Origin: Acidimicrobiia bacterium
GTDB taxonomy: Bacteria; Actinomycetota; Acidimicrobiia; Spongiisociales; UBA5794
Length of the DNA: 64,000 bases
NCBI GenBank assembly: GCA_041581135.1
Contig: JBFGCM010000006.1
Span: 4,482 to 68,481 of the forward strand
Direction: 5' to 3'
This document shows, piece after piece, positions 32,724 through 45,898 of this stretch. Each line of letters starts with the position of its first letter. Position 1 is the stretch's first letter. A program made the position numbers and the translations under genes. The notes below the pieces were generated by a model. The model saw nothing but the letters and a program-made list of their open reading frames with translations. It did no database searches and was not told the DNA's origin.

Positions 32724-34013
32724 ATGGCGATGGCGTTCAGCATCAACGAGGGCAAGCTCCTCGAGTGGGAATCCCCGCTCTACCGGGAGGCGGTACGCCA
32801 GTTCGACCGGGTCGCAGAGCTGATGAACCTCGACCCCAACATCCACGAGCGGATGCGGACTCCACAGCGTGCGCTCTCGGTGGCGTTCCCGTTCCGTCGC
32901 GACGAGTACGCCGAGGTCGACACCGTGTTCGGGTACCGGGTCCAGCACCTCCTCACGATGGGCCCCACCAAGGGGGGCATCCGGTTCGCCGGGGACGTCA
33001 ACCTGGGCGAGGTGGCGGCGCTGGCCATGCTCATGACATGGAAGTGCGCCATCGTCGGTCTCCCGTTCGGTGGCGCCAAAGGTGGCGTGCGGGTCGAACC
33101 GGCCGGCCTGAGCCGAGCGGAGGTCCAGCGGGTGACCCGCCGGTACACCATGGAGATCATCAACTTCATCGGCCCCGACAAGGACATCCCGGCACCCGAT
33201 CTCGGCACCAACGAGCACGTCATGGCGTGGATCATGGACACGTACTCGACGCACGTCGGCCACACCGAACCGGCGGTCGTCACCGGCAAGCCTCCGGCAA
33301 TCGGCGGTTCGGTGGCTCGGCGCGAGGCGACCGGGAGGGGCTTGCTGAGCTTGCTGCCGCCGGCGGCGTCTCATGTCGGCCTCCAGATCGACGGCGCCCG
33401 AGTGGTGATCCAAGGATTCGGCAACGTCGGCCAGTACGCGGCCTTGGCGGCGGCCCAGATGGGATGCCGGGTGATTGCCGTTTCCGACGTCAGCGGCGCC
33501 CTCTACAACGACGCCGGATTGGACATCCCGGCACTGATGAAGTGGACCGACACCCACGGCACGATCGAGGGATATTCCGATGCCGACGTGCTGGAACCGT
33601 CGGAGCTCTTCGGCCTCGATTGCGAGGTGCTCGTGCCGGCCGCCGTCGGCGGGGTCATCACCAAGGCCAACGCCCCTGATGTGAAGGCGCGCATCATCCT
33701 CGAGGGCGCCAACGGACCGACCACTGCCGATGCCGACGTCGTCCTCAACGAGAAGGGCGTGTTCATGGTCCCCGACGTCCTCGGGAACGCGGGAGGGGTG
33801 ACCGTGTCCTACTTCGAGTGGGTGCAGGACCTGCAGAACTACTTCTGGTCGGAGTCCGAGATCGTCGCTCGGCTGCGGGAGATCATGAACCGGGCGTTCT
33901 CCGAGGTGCTCGACATCTCGCTCCGCGAGAAGGTGGACATGCGCACCGCCGCCTTGATCAAGGGCATCCGGCGCGTCACGGCCGCCAAGCTCGCTCGTGG
34001 TGTGTACCCCTGA
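32724..34013 (+). CDS. gdhA: Glutamate dehydrogenase (Glu/Leu/Phe/Val dehydrogenase family)
   Basis: ATG at 32724 (residue 224 of the 652-aa track ORF). Motifs GPTKGGIRF, PFGGAKGG, VIQGFGNVG, EGANGPTT. Confidence 0.9.
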   Translation: MAMAFSINEGKLLEWESPLYREAVRQFDRVAELMNLDPNIHERMRTPQRALSVAFPFRRDEYAEVDTVFGYRVQHLLTMGPTKGGIRFAGDVNLGEVAALAMLMTWKCAIVGLPFGGAKGGVRVEPAGLSRAEVQRVTRRYTMEIINFIGPDKDIPAPDLGTNEHVMAWIMDTYSTHVGHTEPAVVTGKPPAIGGSVARREATGRGLLSLLPPAASHVGLQIDGARVVIQGFGNVGQYAALAAAQMGCRVIAVSDVSGALYNDAGLDIPALMKWTDTHGTIEGYSDADVLEPSELFGLDCEVLVPAAVGGVITKANAPDVKARIILEGANGPTTADADVVLNEKGVFMVPDVLGNAGGVTVSYFEWVQDLQNYFWSESEIVARLREIMNRAFSEVLDISLREKVDMRTAALIKGIRRVTAAKLARGVYP

Positions 34014-34025
34014 ACCGAGGGGAAC

Positions 34026-34859
34026 TCAGCGAGCCGCCGTCCCGGCCAGGGCGGGTTCGTCCACCGGCTCCTCCTGCCAGGCCGGGCAGATCGCCTGGAA
34101 CGAGCACCAGTCACACAGACGGCTCACCCGAGCGGGGTAGTGGTCCCGTTCGATGGCACGGTTGATGGCATCCCACAGCGCCTGGACCTTCCGTTCGACG
34201 GCATCGAGCTGCGTATCGGTGACCGGGATCTCATAGACCGTCGGTCCGGTGAGGTACATGAGCTTGATCTTCGCCGGCGTGCGCCCGAGACGTTGCCGGA
34301 TGAGCAGCGCGTAGATCTTGAGGGCGAAGAACGCCGGCAGCGCATACCGCTCCGGCGGCGCCTTGCCGGACTTGTAGTCGGTGATGACGAGCCCGTCGGG
34401 CCCTTCTTCCATCCGATCCAGAATGCCCCGTAGGGTCATGTCGCCCAGCTCTTCGAGCATGTCGAGCTCGCGATCGATGGGGTCGAACGCCTGGGGGTCC
34501 TCGATGGCGAAGTAGTTGGCGAGGAGCGTCAGGCTCTCGATTCCCCACTCTCGCTCTTCGTCGACGGTTGCGAACAGCTCGTTGAACTCGAGTTCCTTGA
34601 GCTCCATCCAGGCCTCGCGGAACAGGTCATACAGGGCGTCGGGGGTGCGCTTGGGGGCAGGTAGGTCGAACAAGCGCTGGAGGGCGAGGTGGGCAGTCGT
34701 CCCCCGTGCCTGATAGACGCTGGTGGGTTCAGGTAGCTTGTCGATGGCCCGGAACTTGAAGAGCTGCGGGCACGTCTTGAAGTCACTCGCCCTGCTGGGC
34801 GAGAGCGTGGCGAGCTCCGTCACCTCATCTGCTTCGTCGCAAGCCTCTGATCCATGCAT
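34026..34859 (-). CDS. PD-(D/E)XK RecB-family / Cas4-like exonuclease with C-terminal Cys cluster
   Basis: ATG at 34859 (MHGSEACDEA...LSPSRASDFKTCPQLFKFR). Contains ITDYKSGK and C-terminal CDWCSFQAICPAW. Confidence 0.75.
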   Translation of the reverse strand: MHGSEACDEADEVTELATLSPSRASDFKTCPQLFKFRAIDKLPEPTSVYQARGTTAHLALQRLFDLPAPKRTPDALYDLFREAWMELKELEFNELFATVDEEREWGIESLTLLANYFAIEDPQAFDPIDRELDMLEELGDMTLRGILDRMEEGPDGLVITDYKSGKAPPERYALPAFFALKIYALLIRQRLGRTPAKIKLMYLTGPTVYEIPVTDTQLDAVERKVQALWDAINRAIERDHYPARVSRLCDWCSFQAICPAWQEEPVDEPALAGTAAR

Positions 34860-34916
34860 GAGCCGATCATACGTGACCACCCCGACAAAAACCACACGTG
34901 TGTAACTTTCGAGTGG

Positions 34917-34946
34917 TCGCGAAAACAAATACTGAGTCGCGAAAAC
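34917..34946 (+). promoter_or_regulatory. Two direct TCGCGAAAAC boxes 20 bp apart, upstream of the RNA-A promoter
   Basis: TCGCGAAAAC at 34917-34926 and 34937-34946. The second box starts 26 bp before the -35 element. The same layout is seen at 37953-37982. Confidence 0.55.
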
Positions 34947-34962
34947 GAAGTATGGCTTTGGG

Positions 34963-34991
34963 TTGACGGTGCCTGGTTCCGGACGTACCTT
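34963..34991 (+). promoter_or_regulatory. Sigma-70-type promoter of RNA-A (TTGACG, 17 nt, TACCTT)
   Basis: -35 TTGACG at 34963-34968 and -10 TACCTT at 34986-34991 (fits actinobacterial TANNNT). Both hexamers are identical at the paralogous locus. Confidence 0.6.
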
Positions 34992-34996
34992 TCCCA

Positions 34997-35272
34997 CGCT
35001 TCACCGGATCGCAAGATCTGGAGAAGTCGGGCCCGCCGGGTTTGTCCCCTCGGGGACCGGCCAAGAGGCTCTTCGGAGTCACTTGGTCGCCCGGTAGGCC
35101 CACGACCGAATGTGAGGGCTTCGGCCCATACGATCGGTTATCGGAGCGGGCGCAAGCCCGTTTCGAACCGCCTTCGGAAAACGGACCCGCAAGGGAAACC
35201 GGATCTGGAGGCAAAGAAGCCCCGAGAGGGCGGAGGCTCCGGCCAAAGCTTTCTCGGGGTTTCTCTTTGTTC
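34997..35272 (+). ncRNA. Candidate structured small RNA 'A' (about 275 nt), family unassigned
   Basis: Lies between the conserved promoter and a terminator-like hairpin. Carries a series of GNRA/UUCG-capped hairpins, e.g. CCGGATC-GCAA-GATCTGG, CCAAGaGGCTC-TTCG-GAGTCaCTTGG, GGGC-TTCG-GCCC, CGGGC-GCAA-GCCCG. Shares blocks GATCGGTT, TCGAACCG, CCCCGAGAGGGC and CTCGGGGTTTC with locus B. No convincing ORF. The 5' end is estimated, not mapped. Confidence 0.55.
35220..35271 (+). terminator. Intrinsic-terminator-like hairpin plus U-tract ending RNA-A
   Basis: CCCCGAGA (35220-35227) pairs with TCTCGGGG (35252-35259), followed by TTTCTCTTTGTT (35260-35271). Confidence 0.55.
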
Positions 35273-35588
35273 CCTTCTGGGGCCGCTCGAGCCACGGAAG
35301 CGCCAACCGGCTATTGAGGTGGGCGTGTCACGAAGACGGCAGTGTTGCGCGCTTCGAGACCGTGTAGGTGTCCCGCCGACTTGGCGCCCTCGAGTTGGTG
35401 GGCTTGGTGGTTCGGTGGCGATGGGGGGGCGTGGGCGCCGGCTCGTGGCCGTGGAGGCAACGGGACCGTCACGGGCACGGAGCCAGCCGACGGACGCGAC
35501 CGTTGGGGTAGCTTGAGATCCTCCAGTAGCGGGCAACGCCGGCCCTCCTCACTCAACCGGCAGTATCGCGATCGAGTCTGAGGATCAC

Positions 35589-36392
35589 ATGAGCTGTGTC
35601 ACACCAACAGACATCGAGGGTTTCGATTCCTATGAGCTCGGGTCGAGGGGCGACCGGCGTCGCGTCTACACCAGGGGTGGTCCTGATCGGCCGGCGGTCG
35701 TGCTGCTGCACGAGCTCCCGGGGATGGTCGAGGAGTGCATCGAGCTGGCACGACACCTGAGTGACCCTCATGACGGCCACGATGGATACCAGGTGCACAT
35801 GCCGCTGCTGTTTGGGACACCTGGTGAATCCGAGAATCCTCTCAACATGCTCCGGTACGGGTGGTGCATGCGCAAGGAGATCTACCTCTTCAAGGCAGGA
35901 GTGACGAGCCCGATCACTGCCTGGTTGGCCCGTCTAGTCCGGGAAGCGTCCACCCGTTCGGGATCCGAGCGGGTGGCAGTGATAGGGATGTGCCTGACCG
36001 GTGGCCTGGTATTCGGACTCCTCACCCAGACCAATGTCCGTGCCGTGGTCGCCAGCCAGCCGTCTGCTCCGTTTGGCGTGTTCTCGAGGAGCAAGAAGAA
36101 GAACGTGGGCCTGTCCGAGAAGGATCGCCGTGAGAACTTCGACTCGTCCACGCCGATCCTGGCGCTTCGGTATCGCGATGATTGGCGCTGCCCCCGGCTC
36201 AAGATGGAGGGTCTGGCTGAAGCCGCTGGGGTGTCGCTTCCCGAGCCGCCTGACAACGCCATCCAAGACGTGCAAGTGGGGAACATCCGGGTGATCGACA
36301 TTCCGGGGAGTGATCACGCGGTTCTCACGCTCGCACTCCACGATGACACCTACGCGAAGGTGCGGGAATTCCTCTGGGACCATTTGCAGTGA
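35589..36392 (+). CDS. Dienelactone hydrolase family protein
   Basis: 267 aa. PAVVLLHELPGM and the Cys nucleophile elbow VIGMCLTGG. GAGGA lies 6 nt upstream of the ATG. Confidence 0.7.
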   Translation: MSCVTPTDIEGFDSYELGSRGDRRRVYTRGGPDRPAVVLLHELPGMVEECIELARHLSDPHDGHDGYQVHMPLLFGTPGESENPLNMLRYGWCMRKEIYLFKAGVTSPITAWLARLVREASTRSGSERVAVIGMCLTGGLVFGLLTQTNVRAVVASQPSAPFGVFSRSKKKNVGLSEKDRRENFDSSTPILALRYRDDWRCPRLKMEGLAEAAGVSLPEPPDNAIQDVQVGNIRVIDIPGSDHAVLTLALHDDTYAKVREFLWDHLQ

Positions 36393-36547
36393 GCACCCGG
36401 TGAACAACACCAGAGCCCTCGTGGAAGCGCGGCGGCTGCCGCGCATCTGAAAGCGAGGCCCGTGGGGCCGATGCGATCTGGCATCTGGAAGGCACACCGA
36501 GGGCCGACCGATCTGAGTGAGAGGCTCCCACCCGATAGGCTGCGCCG

Positions 36548-37288
36548 ATGGACGTATACGGGCGGGTCAACATCCTCGACGGGCGGGCGGTCCGGCTTTC
36601 GCGCGGCGACGTGTCGACCGCCATCTCGTTGGAGGCCGATCCGGTCGCCCGGGCCCAAGGCTGGGTCGCCAAGGGTGTGCACCGGCTGCTGATCGTCGAC
36701 CTGGATGCCGCCGCCTTCGGGAACTACGCGAACCGGGATTTGATCGGGCGTCTCATCAGGGAGGTGGACGTGCCGGTCTTGGCCGCCGGTGGCATCCGGT
36801 CGGTGGCGGAGGCGGAGCGGATGCTGGCGGCGGGGGCGTGGCGGGTGGCCATGGGTACGGCTGCCATCATCGATCAGCACATGACCTGGGACCTGTGCCG
36901 CGATCATCCGGGTCGGATCGTCATCAGCCTCGACCTCAAACCGACCGAAGAGCTGGTCATCCGGGGCTGGAAAGAGGGCAGCGGCAAGTTCCTCGAGGAG
37001 GCGCTCATCGAGTTGTCCGCCGCCGGAGCGGCCGGGTACCTCATCACCGAAGCGGGACGGGACGCGCTCATGGAGCCGCCGAACCACAGCTTCCTCGAGA
37101 TGGCCCTGAGCTCGGCAAGCGGCGACGGCGAAGTGATCGCTGCGGGCGGGGTGCGCAACCTGGCCGATCTCGAGGCATTGCGCGCCATCGAGGTCGACGG
37201 TCGCAAGCTCGCCGGCGTCGTCGTCGGCCGCGAGGTCACCGAGGGTCGTTTCACCATCGAACAGGCCGTGGCCCTCATCCAGGGGTGA
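36548..37288 (+). CDS. HisA/PriA-like (beta/alpha)8-barrel paralog outside a his operon
   Basis: Aligns by eye along its whole length with HisA/PriA: ILDGRAVRL, LLIVDLDAAAFG, LAAGGIRS, MGTAAI, VISLDLK, RGWKEGSG, VIAAGGVRNLADL, GVVVGRE. The first catalytic Asp position reads Asn (GRVNIL). Confidence 0.65.
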   Translation: MDVYGRVNILDGRAVRLSRGDVSTAISLEADPVARAQGWVAKGVHRLLIVDLDAAAFGNYANRDLIGRLIREVDVPVLAAGGIRSVAEAERMLAAGAWRVAMGTAAIIDQHMTWDLCRDHPGRIVISLDLKPTEELVIRGWKEGSGKFLEEALIELSAAGAAGYLITEAGRDALMEPPNHSFLEMALSSASGDGEVIAAGGVRNLADLEALRAIEVDGRKLAGVVVGREVTEGRFTIEQAVALIQG

Positions 37289-37359
37289 TCGCGGCTTGTC
37301 GCGGCACCACGGGCATCTACGGTCTTGCCAAGGACGTATCTATCCGCCGAGTTGCGCCA

Positions 37360-37386
37360 GGCCTTGGTTCCGATTTCTCCAAGGCC
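37360..37386 (+). terminator. Stem-loop after the HisA-like gene
   Basis: GGCCTTGG (37360-37367) and CCAAGGCC (37379-37386) with an 11-nt loop. No clear U-tract. Confidence 0.3.
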
Positions 37387-37437
37387 CCTTCCTCGCTGAC
37401 CTCTAGCGTTGGGGGCAGGCGAGCAAAGGAGCACTCG

Positions 37438-37845
37438 GTGTCATCGACGGTCATTCCCACGTTCCGCTACAAGAACGCCAAGGCAGCGATCGACTTCCTC
37501 ACCCAGGCATTCGGCTTCACCGCGCAGGCCGTGCACGCAGAAGGGGAGACCGTCGTCCACGCACAACTGGTGCACGGCACCGGGATGATCATGCTCGGGA
37601 CAGACACTGAGGACGAGTGGGGCTCGAACGTGACGACCCCCGACGAGGCTTCCAGACCTGCCGGCGCCGTCTACGTGATCGTCCCCGACGTGCATGCTCA
37701 TGCTGCGGCGGCACGCGTTGCAGGGGCCGAGATCATCATGGAGCCCGAGGCCCAGGACTACGGGGGCCACAACTATGCCGCGAAGGATCCGGAGGGGTAC
37801 ATCTGGAGCTTCGGGGACTACGACCCCTGGGCCGATACCGCATGA
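37438..37845 (+). CDS. VOC (glyoxalase/bleomycin-resistance fold) family protein
   Basis: GTG at 37438 (residue 308 of the track ORF) preceded by AAAGGAG. Sequence VIPTFRYKNAKAAIDFLTQAFGF...YAAKDPEGYIWSFGDYDPW is typical of the VOC family. Confidence 0.75.
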   Translation: MSSTVIPTFRYKNAKAAIDFLTQAFGFTAQAVHAEGETVVHAQLVHGTGMIMLGTDTEDEWGSNVTTPDEASRPAGAVYVIVPDVHAHAAAARVAGAEIIMEPEAQDYGGHNYAAKDPEGYIWSFGDYDPWADTA

Positions 37846-37878
37846 GGCGGCGGGTGGGGCAGGCGAGAGCAGCGCCGA

Positions 37879-37897
37879 ACGGGTCCTTGGGACCCGT
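37879..37897 (+). terminator. Stem-loop after the VOC gene
   Basis: ACGGGTCC-TTG-GGACCCGT, 34 nt after the stop codon. No U-tract. Confidence 0.3.
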
Positions 37898-37952
37898 CGG
37901 GACCACCATGCTCGCGCCGCCGCGAGGCGTCACAAGACGTTCGATTCCTCAG

Positions 37953-37982
37953 TCGCGAAAGTTCTTCTTGAGTCGCGAAAAC
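37953..37982 (+). promoter_or_regulatory. Two direct TCGCGAAA boxes 20 bp apart, upstream of the RNA-B promoter
   Basis: TCGCGAAAGT at 37953-37962 and TCGCGAAAAC at 37973-37982. The second box starts 26 bp before the -35 element, as at locus A. Confidence 0.55.
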
Positions 37983-37998
37983 GAAATACGAATATGGC

Positions 37999-38028
37999 TT
38001 GACGCTGGCATCCGCGACCCGGTACCTT
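37999..38028 (+). promoter_or_regulatory. Sigma-70-type promoter of RNA-B (TTGACG, 18 nt, TACCTT)
   Basis: -35 TTGACG at 37999-38004 and -10 TACCTT at 38023-38028. Hexamers identical to locus A. Confidence 0.6.
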
Positions 38029-38034
38029 TCCGGA

Positions 38035-38421
38035 GTCGCTGGGAAGGGAAACCGCCCCAGCGGAACTCGAAGGCCCGAAAGGGTCGGCGGGGCTCGCCCG
38101 GCCCGCAAGGGGCGGGGAGTGGTCCCGGAACATGCCGCAGCCCGAAAGGGAGGCGGAGCGCCCCGAAAGGGGGCGGCCGGGGTGGCCCTTCGGGGAGACC
38201 TCGGGCGCAGAACGGATCGGTTGACCCCGGGCTTCGGCTCGAGGTCGGCACCTCGGAGACGGGCTTCGGCCCGAGCTGCGAGAGTCGAACCGGCCGCAAG
38301 GCTGGTTGGACGCTCCCGGAGGGATATCACCCGAGAGGGTGAGGGAACCAAAAGGGAATAGGGAACACCCCGAGAGGGCACGAGCTTCGGCAACCGGCTC
38401 CCTCGGGGTTTCCCGCGTCTT
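38035..38421 (+). ncRNA. Candidate structured small RNA 'B' (about 390 nt), paralog of RNA-A, family unassigned
   Basis: Dense run of tetraloop hairpins: CGCTGGG...CCCAGCG (38037-38061), three CCCGAAAGGG units, GACCCCGGGC-TTCG-GCTCGAGGTC, GGGC-TTCG-GCCC, AACCGGCC-GCAA-GGCTGGTT, TCACCC-GAGA-GGGTGA (38327-38342). Ends in the shared CCCCGAGAGGGC...CTCGGGGTTTC element. No downstream + strand gene to regulate. The 5' end is estimated. Confidence 0.55.
38368..38421 (+). terminator. Terminator-like hairpin ending RNA-B
   Basis: CCCCGAG (38368-38374) pairs with CTCGGGG (38402-38408), followed by TTTCCCGCGTCTT. The U-tract is weaker than at locus A. Confidence 0.4.
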
Positions 38422-38621
38422 GGGCCCGATGAGGCTCGACGTTTCAATCTTGGCCGACCGAGCGGGCCCGGCGCCGCCTCCCATTGAGCACCGGCATCCA
38501 TTTCAGGACACGAACGACACCGGACGAGTCGCCACGTTCGTCATCGACTCCCACGCCGGGCGATCCACCAGAGGTCCTCGGACGTCGGCGAACAAACCCT
38601 CTCAGCTGTGGGCGCTTCGGG

Positions 38622-39182
38622 CTAGGTCACGATGATTGGGAAGAATCCACGGTCGTAGGCGTCACCAACATCGTGGAAGTCGCCCCGAAAGACACATGAA
38701 TTACCGAAGTATGTCGTTGCGGGGACTCCAGCGGGGATCTCGATGGCAAGGGAGACGTTCTCAGTAGCGCCGGTCGTCACCGTCAGGCCTTCCACATCGG
38801 GCGGTCCTCCGGCGGGAGGGAATCGGGGATCGGCCGTTGAGAATGCCGCCCCGAGATCCGAGATCGGATTGGCCGGACCCACCCATGCCTGGACATGGAT
38901 TCGCGACCGGTCGAAGGGATCGGGATTGTGGATGCCGACGGTATACGAGATCGTGTCGCCGGCTGTCCGCACGCCGGTCCAGGACTGATACACGATCATC
39001 GGTGACTTGGCTCGGCCCATCTTTCGCATGAGCTCGTGGTCGTCGGGTGCACTGAAGGCGAGCCCCCTCCGTGCTGCCTTCTTGCGCTCCCGTTCGATCC
39101 GCGACCTGAGCTGCCTGAGCGGGTCCTTAGGCCGTGAACGCTGCCCTGCACCTCGCGAGGGTTTGGCGGGCTGCTTGGCCAT
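38622..39182 (-). CDS. Hypothetical protein (186 aa): basic N-terminus plus beta-rich C-terminal domain
   Basis: ATG at 39182 (MAKQPAKPSRGAGQRSRPKD..., residue 43 of the track ORF) preceded by AAGGAGG. No motif recognised. Confidence 0.55.
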   Translation of the reverse strand: MAKQPAKPSRGAGQRSRPKDPLRQLRSRIERERKKAARRGLAFSAPDDHELMRKMGRAKSPMIVYQSWTGVRTAGDTISYTVGIHNPDPFDRSRIHVQAWVGPANPISDLGAAFSTADPRFPPAGGPPDVEGLTVTTGATENVSLAIEIPAGVPATTYFGNSCVFRGDFHDVGDAYDRGFFPIIVT

Positions 39183-39346
39183 GGCAAACCTCCTTGCTGA
39201 ACCTCTGCGACCGTCACGGGACGACCGAGCCAAGCCTACGCCTCCACGCCATGGCGCCCACACCTCTCCGGCCGGCCCGAGTGCCGCCTCATCCGCCGAA
39301 TCCGCCACGGGCCCGGCGGGCCCGGCACTGCGGATAGGATGGCGCC

Positions 39347-39979
39347 ATGGCCTATTCCGCCGACTTGCTCAGCGACGACGAAGAGATCATCCGGGAGTTC
39401 CGACCTCACTGGAAGATGCTGGCGATCCCGTTCTTCTGGATCATCGTGGGCATCGCCATCATCATCGCCGCCTGGTCGGTGATCCCACCCGACGACAATG
39501 CGCTTGTCGACTGGATCATCACCGGCGTCGTCGTACTGCTGCTCATCCCGCTGGCGTTCTCGCCCGTCGTGGCGTGGTGGTTCACGCACTACATCCTCAC
39601 CAACGAGCGGTTGATCACCCGCTCCGGTGTCATCGCCCGCAGCGGCATCGAGATGCCGCTCGAGAACATCACCAACGTGCTGTTCAGCCAGAACGTGTTC
39701 GAGCGCGTCTTGCGGTTCGGTGACCTCCTCATCGAGTCGGCCGGTGAGACCGGACAGAGTCGCTTCGCCGACATCCCCGACCCCCAAGAGTTCCAGGCCT
39801 TGCTCTATCGGATCCGTGAGGCCCGCACCAATCTCCTCGCCGGCTTGGAGGCACCTGTATCCGCAGCCGACGCCGGTCCGGAGGAGCGCATCGCCAAGCT
39901 CGCCAAGCTGCGGGACGACGGAGCGATCACCCAGGAAGAGTTCGAGGAGAAGAAGGCCAAGCTCCTCGACGAGATCTGA
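39347..39979 (+). CDS. Membrane bacterial PH-domain (bPH_2/DUF304, YdbT-like) protein with C-terminal SHOCT motif
   Basis: DEEIIREFRPHW, two TM helices, ILTNERLITRSGVIARSGIEMPLENITNV...GDLLIES, and C-terminal KLAKLRDDGAITQEEFEEKKAKLL (SHOCT-like). Confidence 0.7.
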   Translation: MAYSADLLSDDEEIIREFRPHWKMLAIPFFWIIVGIAIIIAAWSVIPPDDNALVDWIITGVVVLLLIPLAFSPVVAWWFTHYILTNERLITRSGVIARSGIEMPLENITNVLFSQNVFERVLRFGDLLIESAGETGQSRFADIPDPQEFQALLYRIREARTNLLAGLEAPVSAADAGPEERIAKLAKLRDDGAITQEEFEEKKAKLLDEI

Positions 39980-44044: not shown

Positions 44045-45898
44045 TCAGACGCCCGTCACCTGCGCTTGACGCTGGTACATCTGGGCTCGACGGGTGAGCG
44101 CCACCGTGAAGGTTGCACCACCGCCGAGCGTCGGCTCGAACCACACCCTGCCCCCCATCGCCTCGGTGAGACCACGTACGATGGAGAGCCCCAACCCCGT
44201 TCCGCCCTGGACTCTCGTCTCGGCGTGGTCGACCTGCGTGAAGCGATCGAACACATGGTCGTGGAGCTCGTACGGGATGCCGGGCCCGTGGTCGATGACG
44301 GCCAGCCACACCTCGGAACCGCTCGTGAGGGCGCTCAGCTCGATGGTGCCGGGACCCGAGTACTTCAGGGCATTGGTGATGAGATTCGTGAGGATGCGGC
44401 GCAGGTGCTCGGGATCCGACTCGAACTCGTCGAGGTCGGGAGCCACGTCGACCACCACCCGATGGGCGGCCTCCGGGATGCTGTGCACCACGTCGGTCAG
44501 GAAGGGGCGAGCGTCGATGTGCTGGCTCCGCACCGGCAGCGCCTGATTGTCGAGTCGGGACACGACCAACAAGTCCTCGATGAGCACGCGCAGGCGGTCG
44601 GCCTGCTTCTCCGCAGTGGCCAACAGCTCGAGAGCGTTGGGATGAGTTGGTGCCAACTCGGGTCGTGCCAGTGTCTTGAGGCTGCCGATGATCGACGTGA
44701 GCGGTGTGCGAAGTTCGTGGCTGACCACCGACACGAAATCGGTCTTCAGCTGGGCGAGCTCGGCCGCCTTGGCGCCGGCCTCCTGGACCGCCTCGTACCG
44801 TGACATCTGGTTGAGGACGAGCGCACTCGGGGCGGCCAGGGACGTGAGCGTGTCCAGGTCGCGTGGGTGGAATTCGTTCTCTTCCTTGTCTGCGACCAGC
44901 AGCACCCCGATCTGGCGCGACTCGACTTGGAGTGGAACGGCGGCGACGCTCTCGGCGTCGAGGTCCGAGAGCAGGGTGTCCCGGATGCCGGACTCGGCGA
45001 GATCGTTGCTCATTGCCGGTTCGCCGGAGATGTAGACCTGTTGGGCGATGCCCTTCTCGGTGAGCAGCAAGAGATAGCCCTCGGCCCGCAGGGTGTGGCC
45101 GGCCACCCAGATCGGCGACATGACCTCGAGCGCCTGCTCGTCCCGCCGGTAGAGCAGTACGAGCCCGATCTTCGCTCCGACCACGTCGACGACGCGACCG
45201 ACCAGCTCGGGTAGCACCTCACTGAGGTTGCTGCCGGCGCCGATGGTGCGCGAGACCGCGTACATCTGCTCGAGCTGGGCCTCCTCGAGTTTCAACTCCG
45301 CCTCACGCTCCTCGAGCTGGCGGAGTCGCGCCGCCGCCCCTACCAACAGGCGGCTGAGCCCGCGGCCGAGGACGATCGTCGCCAGACACGCCGCTGCCAG
45401 CGCGCCTGTGCGGAGGGCCAGCTCGCCTGAGGTGAGCATCGTTTCGTCCGCCATCGAAGCCAGCAGGTAGCCGCCCACGGCCACCATCGAGATCGCTGTC
45501 AGGTAGAACGGTCCCAGGAGCTGGGCTGCCGAGAACACCACCACCAACGCGAACAGCACCACGATGGGAGGCTCGGTGCGGAACTCTTGGCCGGCAACCA
45601 TGCCGATGACGCCGGCGGACGCCCAGACGACGAGCAGCGCGTCGCTGAGGGGGTGTTCGAGCAACCGACTCCAGGGCAGGAAGGTGAGGACCACCAGCAG
45701 TGTCGCCAGAAGGCTCACCGGAATCCACACGCGGCTGTCGTCGAGTCCGTAGGTCAGGTGGCCGCCAAGAGCGAGCACGGCAATGCCCGTCCACGACAGC
45801 AAGAGGCCGAGCCGCACCAGGTTCGTCCGGAAATCGACGAACTGGTGCCGGTCCGACGAGCGCTCATCCGCCGCCGAATAGCTGTCGGTTTCGGTCAT
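44045..45898 (-). CDS. Membrane sensor histidine kinase with GAF domain
   Basis: About 190-aa multi-TM N-terminus, a GAF-like middle, HisKA SHELRTPLTSIIGSL, HATPase N/G boxes (LTNLITNALKY, DHGPGIP, GTGLGLSIV). No adjacent response regulator. Confidence 0.8.
   Translation of the reverse strand: MTETDSYSAADERSSDRHQFVDFRTNLVRLGLLLSWTGIAVLALGGHLTYGLDDSRVWIPVSLLATLLVVLTFLPWSRLLEHPLSDALLVVWASAGVIGMVAGQEFRTEPPIVVLFALVVVFSAAQLLGPFYLTAISMVAVGGYLLASMADETMLTSGELALRTGALAAACLATIVLGRGLSRLLVGAAARLRQLEEREAELKLEEAQLEQMYAVSRTIGAGSNLSEVLPELVGRVVDVVGAKIGLVLLYRRDEQALEVMSPIWVAGHTLRAEGYLLLLTEKGIAQQVYISGEPAMSNDLAESGIRDTLLSDLDAESVAAVPLQVESRQIGVLLVADKEENEFHPRDLDTLTSLAAPSALVLNQMSRYEAVQEAGAKAAELAQLKTDFVSVVSHELRTPLTSIIGSLKTLARPELAPTHPNALELLATAEKQADRLRVLIEDLLVVSRLDNQALPVRSQHIDARPFLTDVVHSIPEAAHRVVVDVAPDLDEFESDPEHLRRILTNLITNALKYSGPGTIELSALTSGSEVWLAVIDHGPGIPYELHDHVFDRFTQVDHAETRVQGGTGLGLSIVRGLTEAMGGRVWFEPTLGGGATFTVALTRRAQMYQRQAQVTGV

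What the first reader, a model, noticed from the sequence alone, without database searches (positions are those of the whole stretch)
34997..35272. RNA-A: about 275 nt of serial GNRA/UUCG hairpins ending in a clean intrinsic terminator
Seen directly: CCGGATC-GCAA-GATCTGG; TCCC-CTCG-GGGA; GGCCAAGaGGCTC-TTCG-GAGTCaCTTGGTC (an 11-12 bp stem with a symmetric A/A internal loop); GGGC-TTCG-GCCC flanked by GACCG/CGGTT; CGGGC-GCAA-GCCCG; CCC-GCAA-GGG; then CCCCGAGA...TCTCGGGG followed by TTTCTCTTTGTT. Only arbitrary Arg/Gly/Pro-rich ORFs cross it. This density of stable tetraloop hairpins points to a folded functional RNA rather than a spacer.
Basis: seen in the sequence. Interest (0 to 1): 0.6.

Follow-up and report, generated by a model that had tools for sequence, protein, structure and literature searches.

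The report
New hairpin-array RNA gene, Acidimicrobiia
The flagged stretch is a real, free-standing gene for a highly folded non-coding RNA of about 270 bases, one member of an uncatalogued RNA family found across the Acidimicrobiia bacteria, whose members share one promoter design and one nearly invariant 3' hairpin and whose job is still unknown.

Summary
No Rfam 15 family matches.

RNA-A is a complete gene cassette:
- two TCGCGAAA boxes 20 bp apart;
- a TTGACG-N17-TACCTT promoter;
- a start at G34998;
- seven hairpins capped by four-base loops;
- a terminator hairpin that is conserved in sequence.

RNA-B (38035-38414) has the same cassette. So do 40 further RNAs of 145-813 nt in about 29 loci, mostly labelled Acidimicrobiia. 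All 42 terminator modules have the two boxes upstream and a -10 element 40-42 nt after the second box.

Five homologues of RNA-A support 92 base pairs, 36 of them with compensatory changes (shuffles give 19.5 ± 2.8).

Metatranscriptome contigs cover only the RNAs, not the neighbouring genes. RNA-B is matched at 100% identity. RNA-A is matched by an 88% relative whose contig begins exactly at the predicted start.

Function is not shown. The best guess is a stable, abundant, trans-acting RNA that binds protein, with the invariant 3' hairpin as the docking site. The same boxes precede the class II ribonucleotide reductase gene in other genomes. It is not 6S/Ms1-like in shape, not Csr-like in motifs, and not a leader of the downstream hydrolase gene.

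The parts
34917..34924 (+). Distal TCGCGAAA box, centred about -77.5 from the RNA-A start.
   Evidence: Exact repeat of the proximal box, 20 bp start to start. The same pair stands before RNA-B. It is present upstream of all 42 cassettes examined.
34937..34944 (+). Proximal TCGCGAAA box, centred about -57.5. Presumed activator site; this is an inference.
   Evidence: In all 42 cassettes a single TANNNT follows the end of this box by 40-42 nt.
34963..34991 (+). Promoter: TTGACG (-35, 34963-34968), a 17-nt spacer, TACCTT (-10, 34986-34991).
   Evidence: Read directly in the sequence. Conserved in RNA-B (TTGACG-N18-TACCTT) and in the ortholog L122. The generic sigma-70 scan does not call it, because TACCTT matches only 3 of 6 positions of TATAAT.
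34998..35268 (+). RNA-A transcript, about 265-275 nt. The start is G34998; the 3' end lies in the U-rich tail.
   Evidence: G34998 lies 7 nt after the -10 element. The longest metatranscriptome contig of a relative begins exactly there. Fold z = -8.3. No Rfam match.
34998..35026 (+). P1: 5' hairpin capped by GCAA (stem 35004-35010 / 35015-35021, extended by 34998-35002 / 35022-35026).
   Evidence: Helix 1 of A3: 10 pairs, 6 with compensatory change, 94% of cells paired. Most family members start with a GNRA-capped hairpin.
35029..35101 (+). Three-way junction:
- P2: 35029-35040 / 35089-35101
- P2a: 35045-35056, CUCG loop
- P2b: 35059-35088, UUCG loop, with an A.A mismatch flanked by G-C pairs
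   Evidence: Helices 2-4 of A3: 29 pairs, 12 with compensatory change. The A.A mismatch is kept in 4 of 5 homologues.
35104..35139 (+). P3: hairpin with a UUCG loop and an internal loop.
   Evidence: Helices 5-6 of A3. The A-U to G-C change at 35109/35134 is seen in L122.
35141..35166 (+). P4: hairpin with a GCAA loop. It is absent in two of the five homologues, so it is a dispensable module.
   Evidence: Helix 7 of A3: 100% paired where present, missing in L131 and in L062:7177-7412.
35169..35212 (+). P5: composite hairpin ending in CCC-GCAA-GGG.
   Evidence: Helix 8 of A3, the least conserved (72% paired). The GCAA loop at 35189-35192 is replaced by UUCG in L122 and in a DNA contig of run X10, with the stem kept.
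35214..35271 (+). 3' module: terminator hairpin 35220-35259 and its tail.
- lower stem CCCCGAG/CUCGGGG
- G.U wobble
- purine-rich 3x3 internal loop
- GGC-UCCG-GCC cap
- tail UUUCUCUUUGUU
   Evidence: The covariance model of the module scores 69.9 bits here and 56.1 bits at RNA-B, both of which were in the model's training alignment; the next-best hit in the window scores 15.5. Across 32 distinct modules:
- the lower stem is essentially invariant (one U-G among 32);
- the G.U wobble is present in 32 of 32;
- pair 18-38 covaries (C-G 16, U-A 7, U-G 7).
37952..38414 (+). Paralogous cassette RNA-B:
- boxes at 37953 and 37973
- TTGACG 37999-38004
- TACCTT 38023-38028
- start about 38035
- terminator module 38362-38414
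   Evidence: (z = -4.7). Metatranscriptome contigs 100% identical to the window lie on 38045-38343 and 38160-38363 only.

Best explanation
RNA-A is a stand-alone non-coding RNA gene of about 270 nt on the + strand (34998 to about 35268).

It is transcribed from its own housekeeping-type promoter (TTGACG-N17-TACCTT). Upstream are two TCGCGAAA boxes centred near -57.5 and -77.5, on the same face of the helix. That position is typical for an upstream activator. Transcription ends at an intrinsic terminator.

RNA-A belongs to an uncatalogued, class-wide Acidimicrobiia family of hairpin-array RNAs (145-813 nt, several per genome). The promoter boxes, a 5' GNRA hairpin and a 3' hairpin of about 50 nt are conserved in sequence. 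The body between them is a fast-evolving string of very stable UUCG- or GNRA-capped hairpins joined by purine-rich linkers.

The most likely mode of action is this:
- the RNA accumulates as a stable trans-acting molecule and works by binding protein;
- the invariant 3' hairpin (invariant G.U wobble, purine-rich internal loop) is the specific docking site;
- the hairpin array gives nuclease resistance and bulk, or many low-specificity binding sites;
- synthesis is co-controlled with RNA-B and, in other genomes, with the class II ribonucleotide reductase gene through the shared boxes.

Shown here: the gene anatomy, the conserved secondary structure, family membership, and expression as a discrete abundant RNA (directly for RNA-B, through a relative for RNA-A).

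Inferred: that the boxes bind an activator, that the 3' hairpin binds a protein, and any cellular role.

I put the gene-and-family part at about 0.9 and the protein-binding mechanism at about 0.3.
For: - Fold: z = -8.26 on the + strand against -3.49 on the - strand.
- Strand-specific 7- to 10-fold excess of c(UUCG)g and c(GNRA)g words.
- Cassette: all 42 terminator modules found in the held loci have the two boxes 150-820 nt upstream and a single TANNNT 40-42 nt after the proximal box.
- Ortholog at the same position, divergent from the RecB-like nuclease gene, in L122. Boxes, promoter, body and terminator are all conserved.
- Covariation: 36 of 92 pairs have compensatory changes, against 19.5 ± 2.8 in shuffles (0 of 500) and 4-10 with slid partners.
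- Loops swap between GCAA and UUCG while the stem is kept. RNAs at the same genomic position range from 266 to 636 nt. So the body is selected for hairpins, not for its sequence.
- The 3' module is conserved beyond what termination needs: an invariant lower stem and G.U wobble in 32 distinct copies, with covariation only at pairs 18-38 and 23-32. More than 16 different contigs in two sediment metagenomes match only this module.
- Expression: contigs confined to the RNAs in five metatranscriptome runs, and the 5' end of the longest contig coincides with the predicted start.
- The same two boxes stand upstream of nrdJ in L034, L047, L049 and L076.
- No recurring single-stranded motif in the bodies, no credible small ORF, no Pfam hit on the crossing ORFs.
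Against: - No binding protein, phenotype or target is known. The protein-handle idea rests only on sequence invariance.
- Part of the invariance of the 3' hairpin could come from termination efficiency or from processing.
- Expression of RNA-A itself is shown only through an 88%-identical relative in one study. RNA-A was not among the contigs of runs X22 and X23, which hold RNA-B, nor of X25 and X28-X30.
- Contigs carry no strand information, and they stop short of the terminator (probably an assembly break at a repeated module). So the 3' end is inferred, not observed.
- The covariation rests on five sequences.
The copy number in this genome and the full set of genes behind such boxes are therefore unknown.
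Confidence: 0.55

Rival explanations
1. A functional analogue of 6S or Ms1 RNA: an abundant RNA that binds RNA polymerase (holoenzyme or core) and tunes transcription with growth phase.
For: - Abundant, stable and structured, in a class of Actinomycetota for which I found no described 6S or Ms1 RNA; the Ms1 survey paper never mentions Acidimicrobiia.
- Several copies per genome, each with its own regulated promoter.
- Co-regulation with nrdJ would fit growth-linked control.
Against: - No match to any Rfam 15 model even at E up to 10, apart from noise.
- The conserved structure is a string of local hairpins and one three-way junction. It has no closing helix between the 5' and 3' ends and no central bubble.
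- Length at one genomic position varies from 266 to 636 nt, which fits poorly with a mimic of open promoter DNA.
- The Ms1 neighbourhood (HAD-IB hydrolase, oxidoreductase; PMC9130861) is not what flanks RNA-A.
Confidence: 0.12
2. A Csr/Rsm-type sponge: the array presents many copies of a short single-stranded motif that soaks up a translational regulator.
For: - The architecture resembles RsmX/Y/Z: a shared upstream activating sequence, a variable number of hairpins, an intrinsic terminator, several paralogues per genome.
- Purine-rich linkers: A 47%, G 30%.
Against: - The only words strongly enriched in the bodies are the tetraloops with their closing pairs: cUUCGg 87 against 7.9 expected, cGCAAg 39 against 3. 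CCGAGAGG is enriched too, but turns out to be ccc(GAGA)ggg hairpins.
- There is no GGA-in-loop or other recurring single-stranded motif.
- Loops are interchangeable between UUCG and GNRA.
Confidence: 0.1
3. A trans-acting small RNA that base-pairs with mRNAs through a single-stranded seed.
For: It is a stand-alone gene with a promoter and terminator, which is the commonest design for bacterial regulatory RNAs. The linkers hold SD-like GGAG and GGAGG words.
Against: - Only about 25-34% of the nucleotides are unpaired in the predicted folds.
- No sequence block in the body is conserved across the family outside the terminator.
- RNAs at the same position gain and lose whole hairpins.
- No target was sought, because the whole genome was unavailable.
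Confidence: 0.08
4. A cis-acting leader, attenuator or riboswitch that controls the downstream dienelactone hydrolase gene by conditional termination.
For: Same strand as the hydrolase gene. A terminator stands between promoter and gene. In other genomes a sister cassette sits directly upstream of a bPH_2-SHOCT gene.
Against: - 316 nt separate the terminator from the ATG.
- The ortholog L122 has a different gene, on the other strand, downstream.
- RNA-B faces a convergent gene.
- No competing anti-terminator pairing is conserved. The possible mini-hairpin CCC-GAGA-GGG is not supported: two natural variants (GAGG) break its GNRA loop but restore a G-C pair in the long hairpin.
Confidence: 0.03
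5. Not a functional unit: GC-rich spacer with hairpins by chance, or a decaying repeat.
For: High-GC intergenic DNA folds well in general; the minus strand also gives z = -3.5.
Against: Strand asymmetry of fold and of tetraloop words, covariation, a conserved cassette in 42 of 42 cases, and expression.
Confidence: 0.02

Closest known systems
RsmX/RsmY/RsmZ and CsrB/CsrC sponge RNAs of Gammaproteobacteria
   Same: Several paralogous stand-alone RNA genes per genome. Each has a conserved upstream activating sequence at a fixed distance from the promoter, a variable number of stem-loops and an intrinsic terminator. Length and hairpin number change quickly between relatives. (The Rsm/Csr features come from general knowledge, not from a test here.)
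   Different: There is no GGA or other single-stranded motif in the loops. The loops are structural UUCG or GNRA tetraloops and can be exchanged. The conserved element is the terminator hairpin itself. No sequence relation, and no Rfam hit.
Ms1 RNA (Mycobacterium MTS2823, Streptomyces scr3559) and 6S RNA
   Same: An abundant, stable, highly structured RNA of 200-300 nt in Actinomycetota, with its own promoter. The function of Ms1 was also found only after it was noticed for its abundance (PMC4191392, PMC9130861).
   Different: No rod with a central bubble and no pairing between the 5' and 3' ends. A different gene neighbourhood. No covariance-model match. Several size classes per genome.
Large and ornate orphan bacterial RNAs (raiA motif, OLE, ROOL, GOLLD)
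   Same: Found by structure and conservation, abundant, and of unknown function at discovery (raiA: PMC12968392, seen).
   Different: Those families have a conserved, intricate core fold. Here only the ends are conserved and the core is a modular, replaceable hairpin array. No 11-nt tetraloop receptor is present in any of the 42 RNAs.
Sibling small-RNA pairs (OmrA/OmrB, PrrF1/PrrF2, GlmY/GlmZ)
   Same: Paralogous RNA genes close together, with shared promoter elements and similar terminators. (From general knowledge.)
   Different: Those pairs share a seed or a protein-binding body. RNA-A and RNA-B share only the promoter, the 5' hairpin type and the terminator.

Membership tests
Acidimicrobiia hairpin-array RNA cassette (uncatalogued; defined here and in earlier notes of this scan) | Two (T/G)CGCGAAA boxes about 20 bp apart upstream of the promoter. 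| tested here: met
   Boxes at 34917 and 34937. Present in 42 of 42 cassettes.
Acidimicrobiia hairpin-array RNA cassette (uncatalogued; defined here and in earlier notes of this scan) | A TANNNT -10 element at a fixed 40-42 nt after the proximal box. | tested here: met
   TACCTT lies 41 nt after the box end in RNA-A, and 40-42 nt in all the others.
Acidimicrobiia hairpin-array RNA cassette (uncatalogued; defined here and in earlier notes of this scan) | The 3' module CCCCGAG-A-GGG ... c(UUCG)g-type cap ... CUYYCUCGGGG followed by a U-rich tail. | tested here: met
   69.9 bits with model R1 at 35214-35265, although RNA-A was in the training set. The regular-expression match was made independently.
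Acidimicrobiia hairpin-array RNA cassette (uncatalogued; defined here and in earlier notes of this scan) | A body made of serial hairpins capped by UNCG or GNRA tetraloops, about one per 35 nt. | tested here: met
   RNA-A has 7 hairpins in 271 nt. The family has 391 hairpins, 346 of them with tetraloops: 165 GNRA, 128 UNCG, 21 CUCG.
6S RNA / Ms1 RNA | A match to the family covariance model. | tested here: not met
   cmscan of 34800-35650 at E up to 10 lists only noise: two microRNA models, P33, RsmW at 14 bits, PhotoRC-I. Nothing reaches a gathering score in the window.
6S RNA / Ms1 RNA | An extended rod closed by pairing of the 5' and 3' ends, with a large central bubble. | tested here: not met
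   The minimum-energy and consensus structures are local hairpins plus one three-way junction. No pair spans the molecule.
6S RNA / Ms1 RNA | Binding to RNA polymerase. | not testable with these tools
   Needs co-immunoprecipitation.
Csr/Rsm sponge RNAs | Many GGA (ANGGA) motifs exposed in hairpin loops or linkers. | tested here: not met
   A word-enrichment analysis of 34 bodies finds only tetraloop words. 88% of loops are 4 nt long and of UNCG or GNRA type.
Csr/Rsm sponge RNAs | A CsrA/RsmA protein encoded in the genome. | not tested
Intrinsic (factor-independent) terminator | A GC-rich hairpin followed directly by a U-rich tract. | tested here: met
   Hairpin 35220-35259 with UUUCUCUUUGUU behind it. 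The generic scan missed it, because the apical loop plus internal loop exceed its limits.
Riboswitch or cis-regulatory leader | A conserved link to the same downstream gene. | tested here: not met
   The ortholog L122 has a different gene downstream, on the opposite strand. RNA-B faces a convergent gene.

The most novel reading that the evidence does not exclude
Acidimicrobiia possess a dedicated RNA regulon. One activator bound at the paired TCGCGAAA boxes switches on a set of very stable hairpin-array RNAs of different sizes. Each presents the same invariant 3' hairpin to one still unknown RNA-binding protein. The same boxes tie this set to DNA-precursor synthesis (class II ribonucleotide reductase). 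In this reading the RNAs form a new class of ribonucleoprotein regulator. The number of interchangeable tetraloop hairpins sets the capacity or lifetime, not the sequence specificity. They would have no relative among described RNA families.
Probability: 0.25. Interest if true: 0.8.

Novelty: new variant of a known kind. Interest (0 to 1): 0.62.

Why it matters
Acidimicrobiia are among the most abundant Actinomycetota in marine sediments, soils and sponges. Almost none are cultured, and I found no regulatory RNA of the class described in the literature searches made here.

This family is conserved across the class and present in several copies per genome. It is abundant enough to assemble from small metatranscriptomes in which the neighbouring genes do not assemble.

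Its design is unusual. The ends are invariant (promoter boxes and a sequence-conserved terminator hairpin), while the body gains and loses hairpins and swaps UUCG for GNRA loops. That gives a natural experiment on what such RNAs are selected for.

It also gives two concrete handles for finding partners: the DNA box for the transcription factor and the 3' hairpin for a protein. The link to the nrdJ promoter suggests a tie to replication or growth control that can be tested.

Tried and rejected
The copy number in this genome and the full set of genes behind such boxes could not be determined.
It returned only three chance matches in unrelated coding DNA, partly because that loop is exchanged in relatives.
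- Synteny through the nuclease protein gave only one close ortholog with the same arrangement (L122). In more distant relatives other genes lie upstream of the nuclease in the same orientation (an MFS transporter, sometimes with DapB, or other ORFs). The RNA then lies beyond them, or it overlaps a dubious ORF call directly upstream of the nuclease.
- A scan of viral contigs for the terminator module gave one chance hit with no boxes.
- Literature searches for the box, the module and Acidimicrobiia non-coding RNA found nothing relevant.
- Bistable-terminator idea: the 5' strand CCCCGAGAGGG could fold alone as ccc(GAGA)ggg. Rejected as the selected fold, because the two natural GAGG variants destroy the GNRA loop but create a G-C pair in the long hairpin.
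- Repeated CCGAGAGG protein-site idea: in the bodies this word is simply a GAGA-capped hairpin.
- Canonical 11-nt GAAA receptor: absent from all 42 RNAs.
- Small ORFs in RNA-A: none with a start codon, a ribosome-binding site and useful length.
- The histidine kinase in the conserved neighbourhood (44048-45898) has no adjacent response regulator, so it gives no candidate for the box-binding factor.
- RNA runs X25 and X28-X30 hold no RNA-A contig.
Full report
**1. The observation**

It holds six hairpins capped by GCAA, CUCG or UUCG, then a long hairpin CCCCGAG...CUCGGGG followed by UUUCUCUUUGUU.

As RNA, the + strand folds to -170.6 kcal/mol over 286 nt, with z = -8.26 against dinucleotide shuffles. 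The - strand reaches only z = -3.49.

The words c(UUCG)g and c(GNRA)g occur 7 times in the 271 nt on the + strand and never on the - strand. The rest of the window has 3.5 and 2.6 per kb. A stretch of 271 nt with six or more such words exists only here and in RNA-B.

The ORFs that cross the stretch match no Pfam family. No start codon inside the RNA has both a ribosome-binding site and a useful frame.

**2. Anatomy**

A repeat search showed that 34916-34971 recurs at 37952-38007. Both copies hold two GTCGCGAAA boxes exactly 20 bp apart. These are followed by TTGACG, 17 or 18 nt, and TACCTT.

For RNA-A:
- the -35 element is 34963-34968;
- the -10 element is 34986-34991;
- the expected start is G34998.

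Both RNAs end in nearly the same hairpin, CCCCGAGAGGGC...CUCGGGGUUUC. RNA-B (38035-38414) also folds well, with z = -4.7. The bodies of A and B do not align.

Rfam 15 has no match at gathering scores in the whole window. At E up to 10 in 34800-35650 it lists only noise.

The flanking genes are:
- a RecB-like PD-(D/E)XK nuclease on the - strand (real start ATG 34859);
- a dienelactone hydrolase-like gene at 35589 on the + strand;
- glutamate dehydrogenase further upstream.

**3. A class-wide cassette**

I scanned one genome per prokaryote species for GTCGCGAAA-N11-GTCGCGAAA.

About 25 of them had the same layout as RNA-A. Nearly all of those whose record titles I saw were labelled Acidimicrobiia, Acidimicrobiales or Acidimicrobiaceae. 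The layout is boxes, a -35 element of CTTGCC or TTGACG type, a TACYTT -10 element, a hairpin-rich stretch, and the same terminator hairpin. Rfam found only two tRNAs in 19 of these loci.

Including the loci fetched later, 42 terminator modules are now held. Every one has the paired boxes 150-820 nt upstream and a single TANNNT 40-42 nt after the proximal box.

Predicted RNA lengths run from 145 to 813 nt. Many loci carry two to three cassettes in tandem.

In 40 distinct RNAs, the minimum-energy folds hold 391 hairpins:
- 346 have four-base loops;
- of those, 165 are GNRA, 128 UNCG and 21 CUCG;
- the unpaired linkers are 47% A and 30% G.

The only words strongly over-represented in the bodies are the tetraloops with their closing pairs (cUUCGg 87 against 7.9 expected, cGCAAg 39 against 3). 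CCGAGAGG is over-represented too, but it turns out to be ccc(GAGA)ggg hairpins.

**4. The 3' module**

I aligned 32 distinct modules:
- the seven-pair lower stem CCCCGAG/CUCGGGG is invariant, apart from one U-G;
- a G.U wobble is present in 32 of 32;
- pair 18-38 covaries (C-G 16, U-A 7, U-G 7);
- the cap stem covaries (G-C 28, A-U 4);
- between them lies a 3x3 internal loop made mostly of G.A, A.G and A.A oppositions.

A covariance model of the module finds only RNA-A (69.9 bits) and RNA-B (56.1 bits) in the 64 kb; both are training sequences. The next hit scores 15.5 bits.

In two sediment metagenomes, more than 16 different contigs match RNA-A only over 35218-35265. So many other RNAs in those communities carry the same module.

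Conservation of this kind, at the sequence level inside a helix, is more than termination needs. It suggests specific recognition.

In 22 of 36 cassettes the tail continues as UUUYYCGCGU. RNA-A and the other cassettes that sit next to the nuclease gene lack the CGCG.

**5. Orthologues and conserved structure of RNA-A**

The nuclease protein has thousands of homologues.

The closest one, at 84% identity (locus L122), has an RNA-A ortholog at the same place, divergent from the nuclease gene. The whole control region is conserved.

Within the RNA:
- the outer pair of P3 changes from A-U to G-C;
- the GCAA loop at 35189-35192 becomes UUCG with the stem kept;
- the same loop swap is seen in a DNA contig of run X10.

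In more distant relatives the RNA divergent from the nuclease, or from the operon that contains it, measures 236-262 nt (L062, L127, L131) or 477-636 nt (L129, L132, L134, and L055 by promoter similarity). The body therefore grows and shrinks by whole hairpins.

I aligned five homologues that can be aligned: the window, L122, L131, L127 and L062:7177-7412. RNAalifold predicts 92 pairs, 36 of them with compensatory changes.

Counting those pairs on the alignment:
- 89.0% of cells pair, against 78.6% in shuffles;
- 36 pairs have double changes, against 19.5 ± 2.8 in shuffles (0 of 500 reach it);
- sliding the partners by 1-3 columns gives 4-10.

The conserved architecture is:
- P1, a 5' GNRA hairpin;
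- a three-way junction (P2, P2a, P2b, the last with a conserved A.A mismatch);
- P3;
- an optional P4;
- a variable P5;
- the terminator.

There is no helix between the 5' and 3' ends.

**6. Expression**

Three marine-sediment metatranscriptome runs hold short contigs (196-225 nt, word depth 8-20) of an 88%-identical relative. The contigs lie on 34998-35223 and nowhere else in 34700-35700. The longest begins exactly at 34998, the predicted start.

They stop where the shared terminator module begins. That is the expected place for an assembly break at a repeat, so the 3' end is inferred rather than observed.

Two aquatic metatranscriptome runs hold contigs 100% identical to RNA-B (38045-38343 and 38160-38363). 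They hold nothing else on 33500-39500.

RNA-A itself was not among the contigs of those two runs, nor of four others. Contigs show presence only. They carry no strand information.

**7. Context and regulation**

An all-against-all comparison of ORFs from the cassette-bearing loci shows a conserved neighbourhood:
- the RecB-like nuclease, in 25 of 29 loci;
- a bPH_2-SHOCT membrane protein, in 19;
- UvrD-like helicase-nucleases, in 18.

One cassette usually lies directly upstream of the bPH_2-SHOCT gene. In the window that gene is at 39344-39973, and RNA-B is the cassette on its side. RNA-A is the cassette on the nuclease side.

The paired boxes also stand upstream of the class II ribonucleotide reductase gene in L034, L047/L049 and L076 (Pfam PF08471 and PF02867 confirmed on the L076 product). 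There they lie ahead of a second promoter.

The boxes are centred at about -57.5 and -77.5 from the RNA-A start. That is on one face of the helix and upstream of the -35 element, where activators that contact RNA polymerase commonly sit. The activator role is an inference from position and not a test.

**8. How it most likely works**

Three points are shown: a discrete, abundant, conserved, highly structured RNA; a shared control element; and a sequence-invariant 3' hairpin.

The body tolerates loss and gain of hairpins and the exchange of UUCG for GNRA loops. So the body is selected for stable hairpins rather than for a sequence or a precise three-dimensional fold. No canonical tetraloop receptor is present in any member.

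I therefore favour a stable trans-acting RNA whose specific contact is the 3' hairpin, with a protein partner. The array would give resistance to nucleases, bulk, or multivalent contacts of low specificity. I put this mechanism at about 0.3, and the gene-and-family part at about 0.9.

The rivals and my probabilities:
- An RNA polymerase-binding analogue of 6S or Ms1 (0.12). The fold is wrong, no model matches, and the neighbourhood differs.
- A Csr-like sponge (0.10). There is no recurring single-stranded motif.
- A base-pairing small RNA (0.08). There is no conserved seed.
- A leader of the hydrolase gene (0.03). The downstream gene differs in the ortholog.
- Chance (0.02).

**9. Comparison with what is known, and novelty**

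In gene design, the closest analogues are the Rsm/Csr RNA sets: a shared upstream activating sequence, variable hairpin arrays and several paralogues.

In lifestyle, the closest is Ms1/6S: an abundant stable RNA of Actinomycetota.

Membership in either family fails on the defining features that could be tested.

The held literature gave nothing on these boxes, this module, or Acidimicrobiia non-coding RNAs.

Earlier notes of this scan describe the same family in other Acidimicrobiia genomes. I treated them as leads. The cassette, the terminator conservation, the covariation and the expression evidence were re-derived here independently.

I rate it a new variant of a known kind: a new RNA family with an unusual design of invariant ends and a replaceable body, function unknown.

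**Limits**

- The single metagenome scan was wasted on a pattern that hit only chance matches.
- The covariation rests on five sequences.

Noticed in passing
window 34866-34888 (- strand), ATG at 34859: The RecB-like nuclease gene appears to have a promoter TTGTCGGGG-N8-TATGAT. It ends 7 nt before its ATG, which would make the mRNA leaderless. From memory, this resembles the RecA-independent DNA-damage promoter of Actinobacteria (tTGTCRgtg-N8-TAnnnT, PafBC regulon). That is a lead recalled from memory, not a test.
   Followed up: no
window 34893-34902; also L122, and the nrdJ promoters of L034 and L047/L049: A perfect 10-bp palindrome, CACACGTGTG, lies between the nuclease promoter and the RNA-A boxes. 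It is conserved as CACACGCGTG in the ortholog. A near-identical ACACGTGTGT or ACACGCGTGT sits in the spacer of the second promoter in front of the class II ribonucleotide reductase gene in other Acidimicrobiia. It may be a second shared operator for an unknown repressor.
   Followed up: partly
L034, L047, L049, L076 (class II ribonucleotide reductase loci): The same paired TCGCGAAA boxes, with a promoter, stand upstream of nrdJ. They drive a short GNRA-capped hairpin ahead of a second promoter that carries NrdR-like boxes. This ties the RNA family's control element to DNA-precursor synthesis.
   Followed up: partly
window 34917-34944 relative to the nuclease start at 34859: Seen from the divergent nuclease gene, the two boxes are centred at about -61.5 and -81.5. 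One bound factor could therefore serve both promoters in this genome. In other genomes the RNA diverges from other genes, so this may be coincidence.
   Followed up: no
window 38035-38414 and 39344-39973: RNA-B is the positional counterpart of the cassette that lies directly upstream of the bPH_2-SHOCT membrane-protein gene in most Acidimicrobiia loci. Here a 186-aa gene on the opposite strand has been placed between them.
   Followed up: partly
tails of 36 cassettes (for example L009, L090, window 38408-38420): In 22 of 36 cassettes the U tract continues as YYCGCGU. Read on the other strand, this is ACGCGRRAAA, which resembles a TCGCGAAA box with one extra base. RNA-A and the other cassettes on the nuclease side lack it. 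Its meaning is unknown.
   Followed up: partly
L129:3-773 and L130:1-684: Gene callers placed a 227-256 aa ORF with no Pfam hit on record on the strand opposite a 477-nt RNA cassette. It is probably a false protein call caused by the open GC-rich frame.
   Followed up: no
window 44048-45898 (- strand): A GAF-domain histidine kinase with no adjacent response regulator recurs in the same neighbourhood in 8 cassette-bearing loci.
   Followed up: partly
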